From NCBI GenBank assembly GCA_963796055.1, contig CAWCKH010000002.1, positions 1 through 64,000 of the forward strand: a stretch of DNA of 64,000 bases, given 5' to 3'. A model generated the notes under the pieces. The model was not told where the DNA came from. It saw only the letters and a program-made list of their open reading frames with translations, and did no database searches. Origin of the DNA: an uncultured delta proteobacterium (GTDB lineage: Bacteria; Myxococcota; Myxococcia; Myxococcales; Myxococcaceae). This document shows, piece by piece, positions 47,196 through 52,161 of this stretch (its first letter is position 1; the number at the start of each line of letters is the position of its first letter). Both the position numbers and the translations under genes were made by a program.

Positions 47196-49616
47196 TTAGC
47201 GACCCCTCAGCTGGCCGCCCAGGCGCCGCTGGACCTCGTCCACGATGCGCCGGTGGGCCTCCTGGACCTCGTCGTCGCGGAGGGTGCGCTCCGGTGAGCG
47301 ATAGGTGAGCGCGAAGGCCAGGTTCTTCTGCCCCTCGGGCAGAGGTGGGCCGGTGTAGACGTCGAACAGCACCGCGTCCTCGACCAGCGGCTGGCCCACC
47401 TCGCGGATGACGGCGCGCACCTCGGCCGCCTCCATCGTGACCGGGACGACCACCGCGAGGTCGCGGAGCACTGCCGGGTAGCGCGGCAGCGGCTGGAACT
47501 GGGGCGAGAGCCGCGCCACCTGCTCCAGCCCCTCGAACTCGAGCTCGAAGGCGAACACGCCCGGGGGGAGCTCGAGGTGCTGCGCCACGAGGGGATGCAC
47601 CTCGCCGATCCACCCCAGCACCACGTCCTCGACCCGGGCCTCGGCCGTCGCCCGCGGGTGGAACGGCGCCACGCGGGCCAGCCGGCAGCTCAGCTCCCCG
47701 GCCGACAGCGCCGAGACGATGGCCTCCACCGCGCCCCGGGCATCGGCGAAGTCGTTCTGCGCGTCCTTCGAGGTCCAGCTCCGCGGCTCGCGACGGCCCC
47801 AGAGCACTCCGGCGACGTGGAGCCGCTCCTCGGCCACCGGCCGGAGGTCCTTGCCGCCGTGCGGATCGCGCAGGTAGGCCCGGCCAATCTCGTAGAGCCG
47901 GAGCGACTCGGGCTGGTGCCGCAGGTTCGAGGCGACGTTGGAGAGCAGCGAGGCCAGCAGGGTGGTCCGCATCACCGCCTGCTGGGGGGTGAGCGGGTTC
48001 TTCAAGCTGACCGCCCCCACCGGCGTCCCGAGCTTCTCCAGCGCCCGCGGCGTCACCCACGGCAGCACGCCCGGATCGACGAAGCTGTAGTTCACCACCT
48101 CGTCGAAGCCGGCACCGGAGAGCGCCCCGCGGATGCGCCGCTCCACCTCGACCCACGCCGGCTCGGGAACCAGCTCGCCTGAGCTGGCCGGGAGGACCGA
48201 GGGGATGTGCTCGTATCCGCGGATCCGTGCGACCTCCTCCACCAGGTCCTCGGGTCGCTCCACGTCCTGGCGCCATCCAGGGACGCGCCAGCGACCGCCC
48301 GCCTCGGCGGCGAAGCCGAGGGACGAGAGAATGGAGCGGACCTCCGAATCGGGCGTTGCGGCCCCGAGCAGGCCGTCCACCTCGCCCGTGGCCAGCGGGA
48401 CGACGCGCGGCTCGGCCGGGCGCGGGTGCACGTCGATGCGCCCCCGCCGCACGGTGGCCCCGGACAGCTCGGCCATCAGCGCCGCGGCATGGTCCAGCAC
48501 CTCGGGCAGCACGGTGCGGTCCACGCCGCGCTCGAAGCGGTAGGACGCCTCGCTGTGGAGCTGGTGGCGTCGGGCCATCCGGCGGATGGTGCCCGGGTCC
48601 CAGTTCGCCGCCTCGAGCAACACCCGGGTCGTCCCGTCGCTGACCTCGGTGTCCGCACCGCCCATGGTGCCGGCGAGCGACTGCGCCCCGCGCGCGTCCT
48701 CGATGACCAGATCGTCCGCCACCAGGGTCCGCTGCTTGCCGTCGAGCGTGGTCAGCGGCTCACCCTCGCGTGCCCGCCGCACCCGGAGGACGCCGCCCTG
48801 GATGCGGTCCAGATCGAAGGCGTGAAAGGGCTGGCCCAGCTCGAGCATCACGTAGTTGGTGACGTCGACCACGTTGCTGATGCTCCGCACCCCGCAGCGC
48901 TCCAGTCGCCGCCGGAGCCACGCGGGCGACGGTCCGATGCGAACGCCCTCGAGCACCCGGGCGGTGAAGCGCCGACAGCCCTCCGGGTCAGCGATCTCGA
49001 TGCGGATCGCGTCCGAGACCGGCGCGCCCGACTCGGCCGGCACCCGGAGCTTGCGCTGCAGCGGGACGCCGAGCACCGCCGCCGCCTCCCGCCCCACGCC
49101 GAGGTGGCTGAGCGCATCGCCCCGGTTCGGCGTCACGTTCACCTCCAGCACCGTGTCCTCGAGCCCCAGCGCCCGGGCCAGCGGCGTCCCGGGCACCAGG
49201 TCCCTGGGGAGGATGAGGAGCCCGCTCGCATCCTCGGAGAGGCCGAGCTCCTTGCCCGAGCAGAGCATTCCCTGGCTCTCGACCCCCCGGAGGCTGGCGC
49301 GCTGGATGGCCGTCCCGCCCGGCAGGGTCGCCCCCACGGTCGCCAGCGGGACGAGGTCACCCACCTGGAAGTTCTTCGCCCCGCAGACGACTTGCAGTCG
49401 CGCGCCGCCCGCCTCCACCTGGGTGACGGACAGCTTCTCGGCATCGGGGTGCGGAGCCGCCGCCGCGATGCGTGCGACCACCACCCCGGCCAGCGCCTCG
49501 CCCGGCCGCTCCATCCCCTCCACCTCGAGGCCCGCCCGGGTCAGACGGCGGGCGAGCTCCTCCGGAGCCGGCAGCGGCGAGACGAACTCTTGAAGCCACT
49601 CGACGGAGACCTTCAT
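47196..49616 (-). CDS. pheT: Phenylalanine-tRNA ligase beta subunit
   Basis: VVCGAKN, TPNRGDALS, VDVTNYVMLELGQP, RFERGVD, FDVYTG. Confidence 0.98.
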   Translation of the reverse strand: MKVSVEWLQEFVSPLPAPEELARRLTRAGLEVEGMERPGEALAGVVVARIAAAAPHPDAEKLSVTQVEAGGARLQVVCGAKNFQVGDLVPLATVGATLPGGTAIQRASLRGVESQGMLCSGKELGLSEDASGLLILPRDLVPGTPLARALGLEDTVLEVNVTPNRGDALSHLGVGREAAAVLGVPLQRKLRVPAESGAPVSDAIRIEIADPEGCRRFTARVLEGVRIGPSPAWLRRRLERCGVRSISNVVDVTNYVMLELGQPFHAFDLDRIQGGVLRVRRAREGEPLTTLDGKQRTLVADDLVIEDARGAQSLAGTMGGADTEVSDGTTRVLLEAANWDPGTIRRMARRHQLHSEASYRFERGVDRTVLPEVLDHAAALMAELSGATVRRGRIDVHPRPAEPRVVPLATGEVDGLLGAATPDSEVRSILSSLGFAAEAGGRWRVPGWRQDVERPEDLVEEVARIRGYEHIPSVLPASSGELVPEPAWVEVERRIRGALSGAGFDEVVNYSFVDPGVLPWVTPRALEKLGTPVGAVSLKNPLTPQQAVMRTTLLASLLSNVASNLRHQPESLRLYEIGRAYLRDPHGGKDLRPVAEERLHVAGVLWGRREPRSWTSKDAQNDFADARGAVEAIVSALSAGELSCRLARVAPFHPRATAEARVEDVVLGWIGEVHPLVAQHLELPPGVFAFELEFEGLEQVARLSPQFQPLPRYPAVLRDLAVVVPVTMEAAEVRAVIREVGQPLVEDAVLFDVYTGPPLPEGQKNLAFALTYRSPERTLRDDEVQEAHRRIVDEVQRRLGGQLRGR

Positions 49617-49708
49617 GGCTAGACAGTATGGAGCGACCGGCTCGCTCGTTCAGCGCGGATTAGCCTCGGCAACGCCGCGGCCAGAGCCGCAAACGAGGAG
49701 CCGGTCGA

Positions 49709-50804
49709 GTGAAAACTACAACGCTGACCGTCGGAATGGACGTGCATAAGGAGTCGATTTCCTTCTCGGTGCTGGCCGGTGACCGGGGAGGCGCTCGGCC
49801 CACGGTGAAGATCCGGAACGATGCGCTCGAGCTGAAGCGCTGCTTCGGCAGGCTCAAAAAGGAAGGGGCGGTCCGCGCCTGCTACGAGGCCGGGAGTTGC
49901 GGCTACGAGGTCTACCGGCAGCTCGCAGCGATGAAGATCCCATGCGACGTGGTCGCGCCCTCGCTCATCCCGGTGCGCGCCGGCGATCGGGTCAAGACCG
50001 ACCGGCGCGACGCCGAGAAGCTCGCTCGCCTCTACCGCGCCGGCGAGCTCACTTCGATTCGCGTCCCCTCCGAGGCCGAGGAGGCGCTGCGGGATTCTCG
50101 TTCGCTGCCGAGAGGATGCGCGCGAGGACGTCATCCGCGAGCGCGACCGACTCCTGAAGTTCCTCCTGCGCCACGGGCGCAGCTTTACCGAGGGCAAGAA
50201 GAACTGGTCGATGCCGCACTGGAAGTGGCTTCGCAAACAGACGTTCGAGGCCCCCATCGCACAGACGGTCTTCACCGAGTACTTGGCCCGCCTCGAGGGA
50301 ACGCTCGGACGTCTCAAGGCGCTCGACCAGGAACTCGCGACAGCCGCCGAGAAGGAGCCCTATAAAACTCCCGTTGCGAAGCTCCGCTGCCTGCGCGGCA
50401 TCGACACGCTCTCGGCCGTCATCCTCATCGCCGAGATCTGCGACTTCCAGCGGTTCGAGCACCCCGACCAGTTCATGGCTTTCGTCGGCCTCGTCCCGAG
50501 CGAGCGCTCGAGCGGAGCCAAGGAGCGGCGGGGCAGCATCACCAAGACGGGCAACGGACACGCCCGGCGCGTACTGGTCGAGGCCGCCTGGCACTACCGG
50601 CGCCCGCCACGCCAGAGCGGCGTCATCAAACAGCGCTGGGAGGGCCAGGATGCAAAGGTCGTAGCCCACGCATGGAAAGCCCAGGAGCGGCTGCACCGGC
50701 GCTTCCACCGCTTCGTCTCCCGCGGCAAACCTTCGCAGGTCGCGGCCGTCGCCGTGGCTCGCGAGCTCTGCGGCTTTGTCTGGGCCATCGCCCGCGCCGC
50801 TTGA
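49709..50804 (+). pseudogene. IS110-family transposase/recombinase with a +1 frameshift near 50095
   Basis: GAGGAG RBS, GTG start; DEDD residues (GMDVHK, CYEAG, KTDRRDA); C-terminal domain RGID, GLVPSERSSG, ITKTGN, AVAREL; removing one T restores ALRDLVRCRED (365 codons). Confidence 0.88.
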
Positions 50805-50811
50805 AAGGAGC

Positions 50812-51045
50812 AACGTACGTGCATCGCTTCGAAGCCGGCAGGCAGTGGATGAGCCAGGAACGTAGGAGGGACTCTCGACAGTTCTAAGTGGCGGCGGGCT
50901 CGACCCGCCGACCCACGCCGCTAGAGCGAGAAAGCCTCCCGACGAATCACGGTCATGCGGCGGCTCCGCCGACCCGCGAATCCTAGAGTGATCAACCGTC
51001 GCAGCTCCCTCGCTCGTCCCCTGCCTGAAGGCCTCGAAGTACGAA
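50812..51045 (+). ncRNA. Predicted bridge RNA / seekRNA of the IS1111-group element
   Basis: Two stem-closed internal loops carrying target-matching (ACAGTTCTA, GCTAGA) and donor-matching (ATCCTAGA) segments; boundaries approximate. Confidence 0.8.
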
Positions 51046-51120
51046 CCACGAGGAGCTGCGAAGCGAACAGACGCATCGCCACCAACGAACGAGAGAGCTG
51101 ACTTGACGGGTCGCTCCATC

Positions 51121-52161
<1,041 letters not shown>

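What the first reader, a model, noticed from the sequence alone, without database searches (positions are those of the whole stretch)
50812..51045. Bridge/seekRNA with readable guides programmed against the pheS stop codon
Seen: the non-coding region after the IS110 transposase forms two similar modules, each a closing stem around an internal loop with a GCGGCGG...CCGCCGACCC hairpin. Module 1 (50865-50939) carries ACAGTTCTA (50878-50886), the exact reverse complement of the right flank TAGAACTGT, and GCTAGA (50920-50925), matching the top strand of the empty site ggCTAGAac. Module 2 (50941-51000) carries ATCCTAGA (50980-50987), matching the reconstituted circle junction ccATCCT|AGAcagt. Outer stems CAGGCAG/CTGCCTG and GATGAGC/GCTCGTC close both modules. 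Known: IS110/IS1111 recombinases use such RNAs to pair target and donor DNA. Inference: this is a natural RNA-guided recombinase whose target is the Gln-Phe-stop end of pheS. The 5' donor guide matches only weakly (GTC).
Basis: partly seen in the sequence, partly recalled or inferred. Interest (0 to 1): 0.88.

Follow-up and report, generated by a model that had tools for sequence, protein, structure and literature searches.

The report
Bridge RNA of an IS1111-type element
The non-coding tail of a small jumping gene inserted between pheS and pheT encodes a folded guide RNA of an already known kind, which reads both the element's own ends and an 11-base landing site.

Summary
Every motif is at the stated coordinates, and the region folds better than all 100 shuffles (z -3.9). 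A covariance model built from 20 homologues finds the same RNA downstream of the transposase in 79 of 85 sources. It finds exactly five copies in this genome, one per IS copy.

Loop sequences co-vary with each element's own flanks. The right-flank match sum is 143 against 29.5±6.4 when flanks are shuffled. The left-flank sum is 87 against 27.2±4.3. Both are 0 of 20,000. The 3' donor guide follows five different right-end triplets.

This is therefore a bridge/seekRNA of an IS1111-group IS110-family element, a kind described in 2024.

- The target is GCT-AG-AACTGT, not pheS as such.
- The pheS/pheT junction is the only perfect 11-mer in the genome.
- Four other near-identical copies sit at partial matches, and all five follow a frame ending Phe-TAG.
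- The window's transposase is frameshifted; only the copy on contig C3 is intact.

Expression and activity were not tested.

Verdict: real, a well-resolved new member of a known kind, of moderate interest.

The parts
49621..51124 (+). Insertion sequence with one copy of the AG core at each end. The left core is 49621-49622, the left end starts at 49623, the right end stops at 51122, and the right core is 51123-51124. CTAGA is shared at both junctions (49619-49623 and 51121-51125), so the exact crossover cannot be read from this copy alone.
   Evidence: The five copies diverge outside these points. The empty site is seen in same-genus genomes. Core placement comes from the family comparison.
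49628..49638 (+). Left subterminal inverted repeat, ATGGAGCGACC.
   Evidence: It is the reverse complement of 51109-51119. The same position and spacing are seen in homologues.
49709..50804 (+). IS110-family DEDD transposase gene. It is frameshifted in this copy by an extra T at 50095, and its stop is TGA at 50802-50804.
   Evidence: Pfam PF01548 and PF02371 fall on the two frames. The intact 364-aa copy (L002:1830-2924:-) scores 253 bits against NF033542.
50818..50859 (+). 5' strand of the long basal stem that closes both loops. It includes CAGGCAG 50839-45 and GATGAGC 50848-54.
   Evidence: MFE fold. Own 5' and 3' flanks pair at -58.5 kcal/mol. Across 57 distinct homologues the own-pair mean is -48.9 against -25.6 for mismatched pairs.
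50864..50939 (+). Target-binding arm. Its stems are GGAGG 50865-69 with CCTCC 50935-39 and TCTCG 50873-77 with CGAGA 50927-31. They enclose an internal loop and a variable hairpin.
   Evidence: Consensus structure with compensatory changes. Covariance-model match at 50864-51002, 100 bits.
50878..50887 (+). 5' target guide ACAGTT-CT-AA. [quoted passage not shown]
   Evidence: Direct reading. Family-wide covariation with right flanks.
50920..50926 (+). 3' target guide GCT-AG-AG. It has the same sense as the top strand of left flank plus core (49618-49622), so it pairs with the bottom strand. The base after the core matches the first base of the left end.
   Evidence: Direct reading. Covariation with left flanks. 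Handshake-type match to the left end.
50940..51001 (+). Donor-binding arm. The outer stem is CGACG 50940-44 with CGTCG 50997-51001, enclosing an internal loop and the hairpin GCGG...CCGC.
   Evidence: The outer stem is 98% paired and the hairpin 97.5% paired across 20 sequences.
50949..50954 (+). 5' donor guide ACGGTC. [quoted passage not shown]
   Evidence: Direct reading. GTC or TGTC is conserved at this position in homologues.
50980..50987 (+). 3' donor guide ATCCT-AG-A. It equals the right end ATCCT (51118-51122), the core, and the first base of the left end.
   Evidence: Direct reading. It co-varies with the right-end triplet in five variants: ATC, CCT, AGA, GGA, AAG.
51007..51050 (+). 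3' strand of the basal stem. It includes GCTCGTC 51012-18 and CTGCCTG 51021-27.
51103..51108 (+). TTGACG, a -35-like hexamer just upstream of the right inverted repeat. In a joined circle it would lie 17 nt from CAGTAT (49624-49629). This is a candidate junction promoter.
   Evidence: Read by eye. TTGAC(A/G) is conserved at this place in homologues. The linear scan finds no promoter. The junction-promoter idea is taken from PMC11187229, sections 8 and 14.
51109..51119 (+). Right subterminal inverted repeat, GGTCGCTCCAT.
51121..52161 (-). pheS. Its TAG stop (51121-51123 on the + strand) overlaps the right junction and is kept intact.
   Evidence: ORF. Pfam PF01409 and PF02912.
47196..49616 (-). 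pheT. Its start codon lies 4 nt from the left core AG, with only GGCT between them.
   Evidence: ORF. Five Pfam domains. Single copy in the genome.

Best explanation
The 1.5-kb insert between pheS and pheT is an IS1111-group member of the IS110 family. Its 3' non-coding region (about 50818-51050) encodes a bridge RNA, also called seekRNA. The RNA is built as a three-way junction with a long basal stem, a target-binding arm and a donor-binding arm.

[quoted passage not shown] Together they specify GCT-AG-AACTGT.

In the donor loop, the 3' strand (ATCCT-AG-A) reads the right end, the core and the first base of the left end. A short 5' strand (GTC, extended with one mismatch) reads the left end.

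By analogy with ISEc11 and IS621, the element excises as a circle joined at AG. A junction promoter (TTGACG, 17 nt, CAGTAT) then transcribes the transposase gene with the RNA as its 3' tail. The transposase binds the processed RNA and exchanges strands between circle and target at the AG core.

Shown here:
- the anatomy of the element and the RNA;
- conservation of the structure with compensatory base changes;
- covariation of loop sequences with flanks and with element ends across homologues;
- five insertion sites that obey the guides.

Inferred from published family members: transcription, processing, protein binding and catalysis.

The window copy has a frameshifted transposase. It could move only with protein from the intact copy on contig C3. 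Its RNA is identical to that copy's.
For: 1. Element identity.
- Pfam PF01548 and PF02371 are present.
- NCBIfam NF033542, 'IS110 family RNA-guided transposase', scores 253 bits against a cutoff of 140.
- The solved recombinases ISCro4 (9t56, 4.5e-9) and IS621 (8wt6, 2.8e-8) are sequence relatives.
- There are 11-bp subterminal inverted repeats and a roughly 320-nt downstream non-coding region against about 86 nt upstream.

2. Structure.
- MFE z-score is -3.9.
- In a 20-sequence alignment, 91.7% of cells pair against 85.4% when shuffled.
- Ten pairs change on both sides (0 of 500 shuffles reach this), and slid controls give 31-45% paired.
- The basal stem is kept with different sequences. Own flank pairs average -48.9 kcal/mol and mismatched pairs -25.6, over 57 distinct RNAs.

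3. Recurrence.
- Model R1 gives full-length matches (40.7-132 bits) in 79 of 85 sources. Of the 80 such matches, 78 lie downstream of and co-oriented with the matched transposase gene; the other two (the only hit in L085, and a second hit in L081) lie on the opposite strand.
- It gives exactly 5 matches in the 5.5-Mb own genome, one in each IS copy.

4. Guides track flanks.
- Right flank: sum of consecutive matches is 143 over 32 distinct guide sets, against 29.5±6.4 shuffled (max 60; 0 of 20,000).
- Left flank: 87 over 29 sets, against 27.2±4.3 shuffled (max 48; 0 of 20,000).

5. Donor guide tracks the right end. Triplets ATC (most), CCT (window), AGA (L075), GGA (L030, L031, L047, L048) and AAG (L065) are each mirrored in that element's own 3' donor guide.

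6. The five genomic copies carry an identical RNA. They sit at GCT-AG-AACTGT, -AACTTT, -AACAGC, -AACGGG and (left flank off the contig) -AACTGC.

7. Guide order. The top-strand complement lies 5' of the bottom-strand complement. This is the order reported for IS1111-type seekRNAs (PMC11187229, abstract and section 9) and the reverse of IS621 (PMC11208160, passage in section 7).
Against: - No RNA evidence was obtained.
- The linear DNA has no sigma-70-like promoter. The junction promoter was read by eye, and its -10 (CAGTAT) is weak.
- The 5' donor guide pairs over only 3-5 bases.
- An inner stem of the donor arm that I proposed is only 59.5% paired in the alignment, so I dropped it.
- Rfam 15 has no matching family, so there is no curated model to test against.
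- Homologues are related to each other, so the shuffle tests overstate independence.
- The transposase in the window copy is broken. Three of the other four copies are broken as well.
Confidence: 0.9

Rival explanations
1. The RNA gene is real, but the window copy is a non-autonomous relic. It cannot make transposase. It is either inert or mobilised only in trans by the single intact copy on contig C3.
For: - The window copy has an extra T at 50095 that splits the gene into 218-aa and 197-aa frames.
- Copies L003 and L005 carry an extra T, and L004 an extra C, near 50437.
- Only L002 has an uninterrupted 364-aa frame.
- The ends and the RNA are identical in all copies, so trans-mobilisation is possible in principle.
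Against: Three different single-base insertions in four otherwise near-identical copies could be assembly errors rather than real lesions. The reads were not available to check.
Confidence: 0.55
2. The internal copies of end and flank sequences act at the DNA level, for example as accessory transposase-binding sites. They are not RNA guides.
For: ATCCTAGA inside the element repeats its own right end, and some transposons carry internal copies of their end sequences. No RNA was observed here.
Against: - The motifs sit in the loops of helices kept by compensatory changes, which is a constraint on RNA.
- The target-loop motifs match the host flanks, which are not part of the element, and change with them across 32 guide sets.
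- For ISEc11, ISKpn4 and ISPa11 the RNA co-purifies with the transposase, and for ISEc11 the non-coding region was shown to be essential (PMC11187229, abstract, headings and section 8).
Confidence: 0.03
3. The region is a structured 3' UTR, terminator or stability element of the transposase mRNA. Its matches to the flanks are chance.
For: It lies directly after the stop codon and is GC-rich and strongly folded. The 6-nt GCTAGA match is not significant alone (1713 of 2000 shuffles).
Against: - The 9-nt and 8-nt matches together occur in 1 of 2000 shuffles.
- The same loop positions match each homologue's own flanks (0 of 20,000).
- No T-tract terminator follows the structure.
Confidence: 0.02

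Closest known systems
seekRNAs of IS1111-family elements ISEc11, ISKpn4, ISPa11 and ISPst6 (Siddiquee et al. 2024, PMC11187229; I read the abstract and sections 6, 8, 9, 13 and 14)
   Same: - DEDD transposase with a GL-P----SG motif.
- Subterminal inverted repeats.
- Long non-coding region downstream of the transposase gene.
[quoted passage not shown]
- The top-strand complement lies 5' of the bottom-strand complement.
- No internal promoter, so expression is expected from the circle-junction promoter.
   Different: - I did not compare the sequences. The best relatives found here are 38-55% identical in protein, from uncultured soil and water bacteria.
- The paper stresses a short 70-100-nt target-reading RNA and a longer 145-170-nt form of unknown role. 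Here the conserved unit includes a donor-reading arm and a 35-45-bp basal stem (about 230 nt).
- No experiment was done on this element.
IS621 bridge RNA and the bridge RNAs predicted for ISfinder's IS1111 elements (Durrant et al. 2024, PMC11208160, passages found by search; Hiraizumi et al. 2024, PMC11208158, handshake passages)
   Same: - Two internal loops, one for the target and one for the donor.
- Each loop has one strand pairing with the top and one with the bottom DNA strand.
- Both strands include a 2-nt core.
- Guide and target co-vary across orthologues.
- Bases after the core in the target loop match the donor (handshake type; 46 of 66 against 37.6±1.5 shuffled).
- The paper predicts bridge RNAs in the right end of 93% of IS1111 elements.
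   Different: - In IS621 the RNA lies in the left end, upstream of the gene, and the guide order is reversed (the left-target guide is 5').
- The core here reads AG on the element's top strand, against CT in IS621.
- Both arms are closed by one long basal stem.
- Protein similarity to IS621 and ISCro4 is confined mainly to the C-terminal domain (E about 1e-8).

Membership tests
IS110 family, IS1111 group (insertion sequence) | N-terminal DEDD (RuvC-like) transposase domain | tested here: met
   PF01548 scores 2e-11 on the window's N-terminal frame and 6.5e-17 on the intact copy.
IS110 family, IS1111 group (insertion sequence) | C-terminal Transposase_20 domain with the GL-P----S(t)G motif | tested here: met
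   PF02371 scores 6e-21. VGLVPSERSSG is read in the translation. The motif definition comes from PMC11187229, section 6.
IS110 family, IS1111 group (insertion sequence) | Curated whole-protein model for IS110-family RNA-guided transposases | tested here: met
   NF033542 scores 253.3 bits against a cutoff of 140, on the intact copy.
IS110 family, IS1111 group (insertion sequence) | Subterminal inverted repeats of 7-17 bp | tested here: met
   An 11-bp repeat, ATGGAGCGACC 49628-38 with GGTCGCTCCAT 51109-19, set back 5 and 3 nt from the core.
IS110 family, IS1111 group (insertion sequence) | The longer non-coding region lies downstream of the transposase gene | tested here: met
   About 318 nt lie after the stop (50805-51122) against about 86 nt before the start (49623-49708).
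IS110 family, IS1111 group (insertion sequence) | Site- and orientation-specific insertion with no target duplication beyond the shared core | tested here: met
   All five copies have the same orientation relative to GCT-AG-AAC. The empty site is seen in 10 of 10 same-genus genomes examined.
IS110 family, IS1111 group (insertion sequence) | Intact transposase gene in this copy | tested here: not met
   There is a one-base insertion at 50095. An intact copy exists on contig C3. This bears on the activity of this copy, not on family membership.
Bridge RNA / seekRNA | Structured non-coding RNA with two internal loops, kept across orthologues | tested here: met
   Consensus structure with compensatory pairs. 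Model R1 matches in 79 of 85 sources. The basal stem is conserved.
Bridge RNA / seekRNA | [quoted passage not shown] | tested here: met
   ACAGTT-CT-A and GCT-AG read against GCT-AG-AACTGT. The five insertion sites agree.
Bridge RNA / seekRNA | Loop sequences co-vary with insertion flanks across orthologues | tested here: met
   Right flank 143 against 29.5±6.4, left flank 87 against 27.2±4.3, both 0 of 20,000 shuffles.
Bridge RNA / seekRNA | Donor loop complementary to both sides of the joined element ends | tested here: inconclusive
   The 3' strand is clear: 8 nt in the window, and five right-end variants are mirrored. The 5' strand pairs over only GTC/TGTC, and in the window over 5 of 6 bases with a mismatch.
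Bridge RNA / seekRNA | IS1111-type guide order (top-strand complement 5' of bottom-strand complement) | tested here: met
   50878-87 precedes 50920-26. The order is as stated in PMC11187229, abstract and section 9.
Bridge RNA / seekRNA | The RNA is made, binds the transposase and is required for transposition | not testable with these tools
Any Rfam 15 family | Match at or above a family's gathering score | tested here: not met
   Three matches at E of 10 or less in 49400-51400. All are far below gathering, and none lies on 50805-51060. I saw no bridge-RNA family among the hits.

The most novel reading that the evidence does not exclude
The window element may be a naturally donor-reprogrammed member whose right end has come to mimic its own left target.

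Its right end reads CCT-AG and its left target reads GCT-AG. The two 3' guides, CCTAGAG and GCTAGAG, differ by one base.

Donor and target therefore share 5 nt (CTAGA) instead of the 2-nt core. This is the only such case among 30 representative elements: 21 share nothing beyond the core and 8 share one extra base.

Each insertion also recreates a 10-of-11 copy of the target at its right junction. This could change directionality, through easier excision or repeated insertion at an occupied site.

The clade shows further rules that I did not find described for IS1111-type RNAs in the passages I read:
- handshake-type positions;
- cores that differ between donor (AG) and target (AA in 10 of 30 right junctions);
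- targets containing CTAG or TAG, which in this 70.7% GC genome fall at Phe-TAG gene ends.
Probability: 0.2. Interest if true: 0.55.

Novelty: new member of a known kind. Interest (0 to 1): 0.35.

Why it matters
The finding gives a clean natural example in which all four guides of an IS1111-type bridge RNA can be read directly against five real insertion sites and an empty site.

It also gives a family set of 33 distinct guide pairs with their flanks. That set shows how many bases are actually read: about 3 on the left, the 2-nt core, and 4-7 on the right. IS1111-type systems are less well studied than IS621 or ISCro4, so such natural guide-target tables are useful for choosing and programming new recombinases.

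For the host, the element sits inside the essential pheS-pheT operon, 4 nt upstream of the pheT start codon.

The finding does not add a new kind of system.

Tried and rejected
- Rfam scan of 49400-51400 at E of 10 or less: only three spurious weak hits.
- Sigma-70 promoter scan of the linear element: 0 sites. The two terminator-like sites are no more than the shuffles give.
- An inner stem of the donor arm (TCAC with GTGA in the window) was only 59.5% paired across the alignment. I left it out of the model.
- My first inverted-repeat search called wrong repeats in many loci. I redid it restricted to the region after the RNA.
- Before the counts I dropped three loci. L054 had a wrong repeat call. 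L043 has an RNA lacking the target loop. L011 has an aberrant left end and was kept for the right side only. Loci without usable ends or flanks were not counted. The left junction of L075 was corrected by hand after a wrong ATG anchor.
- Public RNA runs held only small shares, 0.18 or less of the sampled words. This is no evidence of expression or habitat.
- Binding and complex prediction was not attempted.
- Search for the element in the genus: 0 of 12 other same-genus genomes searched. Many are fragmented (66-100% complete), so this does not show absence.
- Earlier-findings look-up: nothing to show.
- Literature search for IS1111 + 'stop codon' + 'insertion site' listed 7 of 8 papers. None concerns stop-codon targeting, judging by title and the start of the abstract only.
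- I considered whether pheS itself is the evolved target. I rejected this as stated because four other copies sit elsewhere. The pheS/pheT site is still the only perfect 11-mer.

Full report
**What is in the window**

Between the start of pheT (CAT at 49614-49616, minus strand) and the stop of pheS (CTA at 51121-51123, minus strand) lies a 1.5-kb insert on the plus strand. It has these features:
- A gene whose two frames carry the IS110-family domains PF01548 (49709-50365) and PF02371 (50211-50804).
- 11-bp subterminal inverted repeats, at 49628-49638 and 51109-51119.
- CTAGA at both junctions.
- About 318 non-coding bases after the stop codon, against about 86 before the start.

These are the marks of the IS1111 group as described in PMC11187229 (section 6) and PMC11208160 (passages on IS1111).

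**Check of the observation**

The stretch 50805-51120 folds to -138.2 kcal/mol, against -115.6±5.8 for 100 shuffles (z -3.9, none as good).

The chance levels come from 2000 dinucleotide shuffles of the non-coding region:
- The 9-nt match to the right flank recurs in 16.
- The 8-nt match to the right end recurs in 94.
- Both together recur in 1.
- The 6-nt GCTAGA match recurs in 1713, so it means nothing on its own.

All 10 same-genus genomes in which the pheT start was found have an uninterrupted junction. It reads catGGCTAGAACTGC in 6 (L088, L089, L090, L091, L093, L095) and a one-base variant in 4 (L092, L094, L096, L097).

**Copies in the genome**

The genome (5.53 Mb, 7 contigs, 70.7% G+C) holds five nearly identical copies. 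From 50439 to the right end they are identical, so all carry the same RNA.

Their transposase genes differ by single-base insertions:
- The window copy has an extra T at 50095.
- L003 and L005 have an extra T near 50437.
- L004 has an extra C near 50437.
- Only the copy on contig C3 (L002:1830-2924:-, 364 aa) is open throughout.

That intact protein scores 253 bits on NF033542, 'IS110 family RNA-guided transposase' (cutoff 140). It is a distant sequence relative of the solved ISCro4 and IS621 recombinases.

The flanks of the five copies read as follows:
- catgGC-TAGA-ACTGTtcc
- gtgcGC-TAGA-ACTTTtcc
- gagaGC-TAGA-ACAGCaac
- gtcgGC-TAGA-ACGGGcgc
- (contig end)-TAGA-ACTGCagg

**Homologues and the RNA model**

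A scan of one genome per prokaryotic species found 383 stretches encoding relatives of the intact transposase. The best 80 were fetched, at 38-55% identity.

Their downstream regions share a plain block pattern:
1. GGAGAACCCTCGA
2. about 9 variable bases
3. a variable hairpin
4. a variable run ending in TAGAG or TAGAC
5. CGAGGCAGCTCC
6. CGACGAATCA
7. TTGTCATG
8. a short conserved hairpin
9. AATATCAG plus two variable bases
10. TGATCAACCGTCG

The window fits this pattern block for block.

RNAalifold on 20 of the sequences gives five helices. The counts on my structure are:
- 91.7% of cells pair, against 85.4% shuffled.
- Ten pairs change on both sides (0 of 500 shuffles reach this).
- Slid controls give 31-45% paired.
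- The hairpin base of the target arm carries most of the compensatory changes.
- A sixth helix that I proposed inside the donor arm paired in only 59.5% of cells, so I dropped it.

The covariance model R1 (133 positions, 22 pairs) gave 80 full-length matches of 40.7-132 bits in 79 of 85 sources. Seventy-eight of them lie after the transposase gene that brought the locus in, on its strand; the sole hit in L085 and a second hit in L081 lie on the opposite strand.

The six sources without a match are explained. In L013, L062, L064 and L070 the contig ends at the gene. In L017 and L035 the gene match is partial.

In the window's own genome R1 finds exactly the five IS copies.

The 55 nt on either side of the modelled core pair with each other. 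Across 57 distinct RNAs the mean is -48.9 kcal/mol, against -25.6 for 5' and 3' flanks taken from different elements. So a long basal stem closes both arms, and the whole RNA in the window runs from about 50818 to 51050.

**Do the loops read the flanks?**

I placed the ends by the inverted repeats and a fixed spacing. The spacing is core AG, five bases, then ATG... on the left, and ...CAT, three bases, then the core on the right.

I took one representative per distinct guide pair and counted consecutive matches outward from the core:
- The 5' target strand against each element's own right flank gives 143 over 32 guide sets. Shuffling flanks among elements gives 29.5±6.4 (maximum 60; 0 of 20,000).
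- The 3' target strand against each element's own left flank gives 87 over 29 sets. Shuffling gives 27.2±4.3 (maximum 48; 0 of 20,000).

Some rows were dropped or fixed before the count. L054 had a wrong repeat call. L043 lacks the target loop. L011 was used for the right side only. The left junction of L075 was corrected by hand.

Homologues are related to each other, so these are not true probabilities. The effect is still large and can be seen by eye in nearly every row.

Typical reach is about 3 bases left of the core and 4-7 bases right of it.

**The donor loop**

The donor loop behaves the same way:
- Most elements end ...CAT-ATC-AG, and their 3' donor strand reads ATATCAG.
- The window ends CAT-CCT-AG and reads ATCCTAG.
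- L075 ends CAT-AGA-AG and reads ATAGAAG.
- L030, L031, L047 and L048 end CAT-GGA and read ATGGAAG.
- L065 ends TAT-AAG and reads ATAAGAG.

The 5' donor strand is short everywhere (GTC or TGTC). The window's weak match is therefore a family trait and not a defect.

**What the RNA specifies in the window**

The target is GCT-AG-AACTGT. The 5' target strand is ACAGTT-CT-A at 50878-86. The 3' target strand is GCT-AG at 50920-24.

The genome has no unoccupied copy of this 11-mer. It has 2 unoccupied GCTAGAACT sites and 17 unoccupied GCTAGAAC sites. The pheS/pheT junction is therefore the only perfect site. The four other copies sit at sites that share GCT-AG-AAC and 1-2 of the last three bases.

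In all five cases, the strand opposite to the element reads ...TTC TAG just outside the right end, after an open frame:
- pheS, 346 aa;
- a 2-oxoacid dehydrogenase acyltransferase (PF00198, 1.3e-80);
- two frames of 426 aa and at least 502 aa with no Pfam match;
- one doubtful frame of 115 aa.

The stop codon is kept after insertion.

My inference is that a site containing CTAG is rare in a 70.7% G+C genome and falls mostly at gene ends. I did not test this on the unoccupied sites.

**Mechanism**

The anatomy, the order of the two target strands, and the overlap of both strands at the core agree with the IS1111-type seekRNAs. In those RNAs the segment complementary to the top strand lies 5' of the one complementary to the bottom strand (PMC11187229, abstract and section 9). 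[quoted passage not shown]

Two details recall the handshake guides of IS621 (PMC11208158, handshake passages). Both come:
- The two bases after the core in the 3' target strand match the first two bases of the left end in 46 of 66 positions (shuffled 37.6±1.5; 0 of 20,000). They do not match the target's own right flank (14 of 66, no better than shuffled).
- The two bases after the core in the 3' donor strand match the right target flank in 25 of 66 positions (18.2±2.8; 270 of 20,000).

No promoter is found in the linear element. The hexamer TTGACG (51103-08) is conserved as TTGAC(A/G) in homologues. Once the ends are joined at AG it would lie 17 nt from CAGTAT (49624-29). Several relatives have CATAAT at that place.

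This fits the junction promoter described for the family, from which the transposase mRNA and the long RNA are co-transcribed (PMC11187229, sections 8 and 14). I read it by eye and did not test it.

**What is unusual about this member**

Among 30 representative elements with both junctions, donor and target share nothing beyond the 2-nt core in 21 and one extra base in 8. Only the window element shares three extra bases (CTAGA).

Its right end (CCT-AG) differs from its left target (GCT-AG) by one base. The right junction of every insertion is therefore a 10-of-11 copy of the target. Whether this affects excision or repeated insertion is open.

The element was not found in the 12 other same-genus genomes searched, several of which are fragmented. 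Its five copies are nearly identical. Both points suggest a recent arrival.

**Limits**

No RNA, protein or activity data were obtained. I read only parts of the papers named, and no supplements. The bridge-RNA models and ISfinder tables in those supplements could show whether this element or its clade is already catalogued.

**Verdict**

The feature is real and the main reading is right. It is a well-resolved new member of a kind described in 2024. It is not a system aimed at pheS, and in this copy the recombinase gene is broken.

Noticed in passing
window 49560-49660: The element sits inside the pheS-pheT operon, 4 nt upstream of the pheT start codon and opposite in orientation. In same-genus genomes a GGAG lies 11-14 nt upstream of the pheT ATG, inside the end of pheS. 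In the window that position is replaced by the element's left end, which has no GGAG. pheS and pheT are single-copy. How pheT is transcribed and translated here is open.
   Followed up: partly
window 50095; L003, L004 and L005 near the position matching window 50437: Four of the five near-identical copies have a frameshifted transposase, caused by three different single-base insertions. Only the copy on contig C3 is intact. These may be real independent lesions or assembly errors. Reads were not available.
   Followed up: partly
family loci, e.g. L044, L055, L041, L083, L081, L077, L046, L086, L072, L069 (right junctions): The left-junction core is AG in 30 of 30 representative elements. The right-junction core is AA in 10 and GG in 2. 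Where it is AA, the 5' target strand carries TT while both 3' strands keep AG. Donor and target cores therefore seem to differ at the second position. This implies a G-T wobble or a crossover to the left of that base.
   Followed up: partly
L016, L019 and L023, about 2645-2756: A second, weak partial match to the RNA model (22.8 bits) lies about 190 nt upstream of the full RNA. The non-coding region in these loci is 460 nt, against 268 nt in the sister copy L018. This looks like a partial internal duplication of the RNA region.
   Followed up: no
L081 3753-3881 (-) and L085 478-608 (-): Additional full-length matches to the RNA model lie on the opposite strand near the fetched element. This suggests a second family member inserted close by.
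   Followed up: no
window 50888-50918 and 50958-50978: The hairpins of the two arms share CCGCCGACCC in the window. In homologues the target-arm hairpin is variable and only the donor-arm hairpin is conserved.
   Followed up: partly
L020-L022 and L025-L028 flanks: Several relatives insert into repeated host sequences. In L020-22 the flanks are CGGGGATGA-type repeats on both sides. In L025-28 similarity between copies runs about 45 nt past the right end. This recalls the REP and attC targets known for other family members.
   Followed up: no
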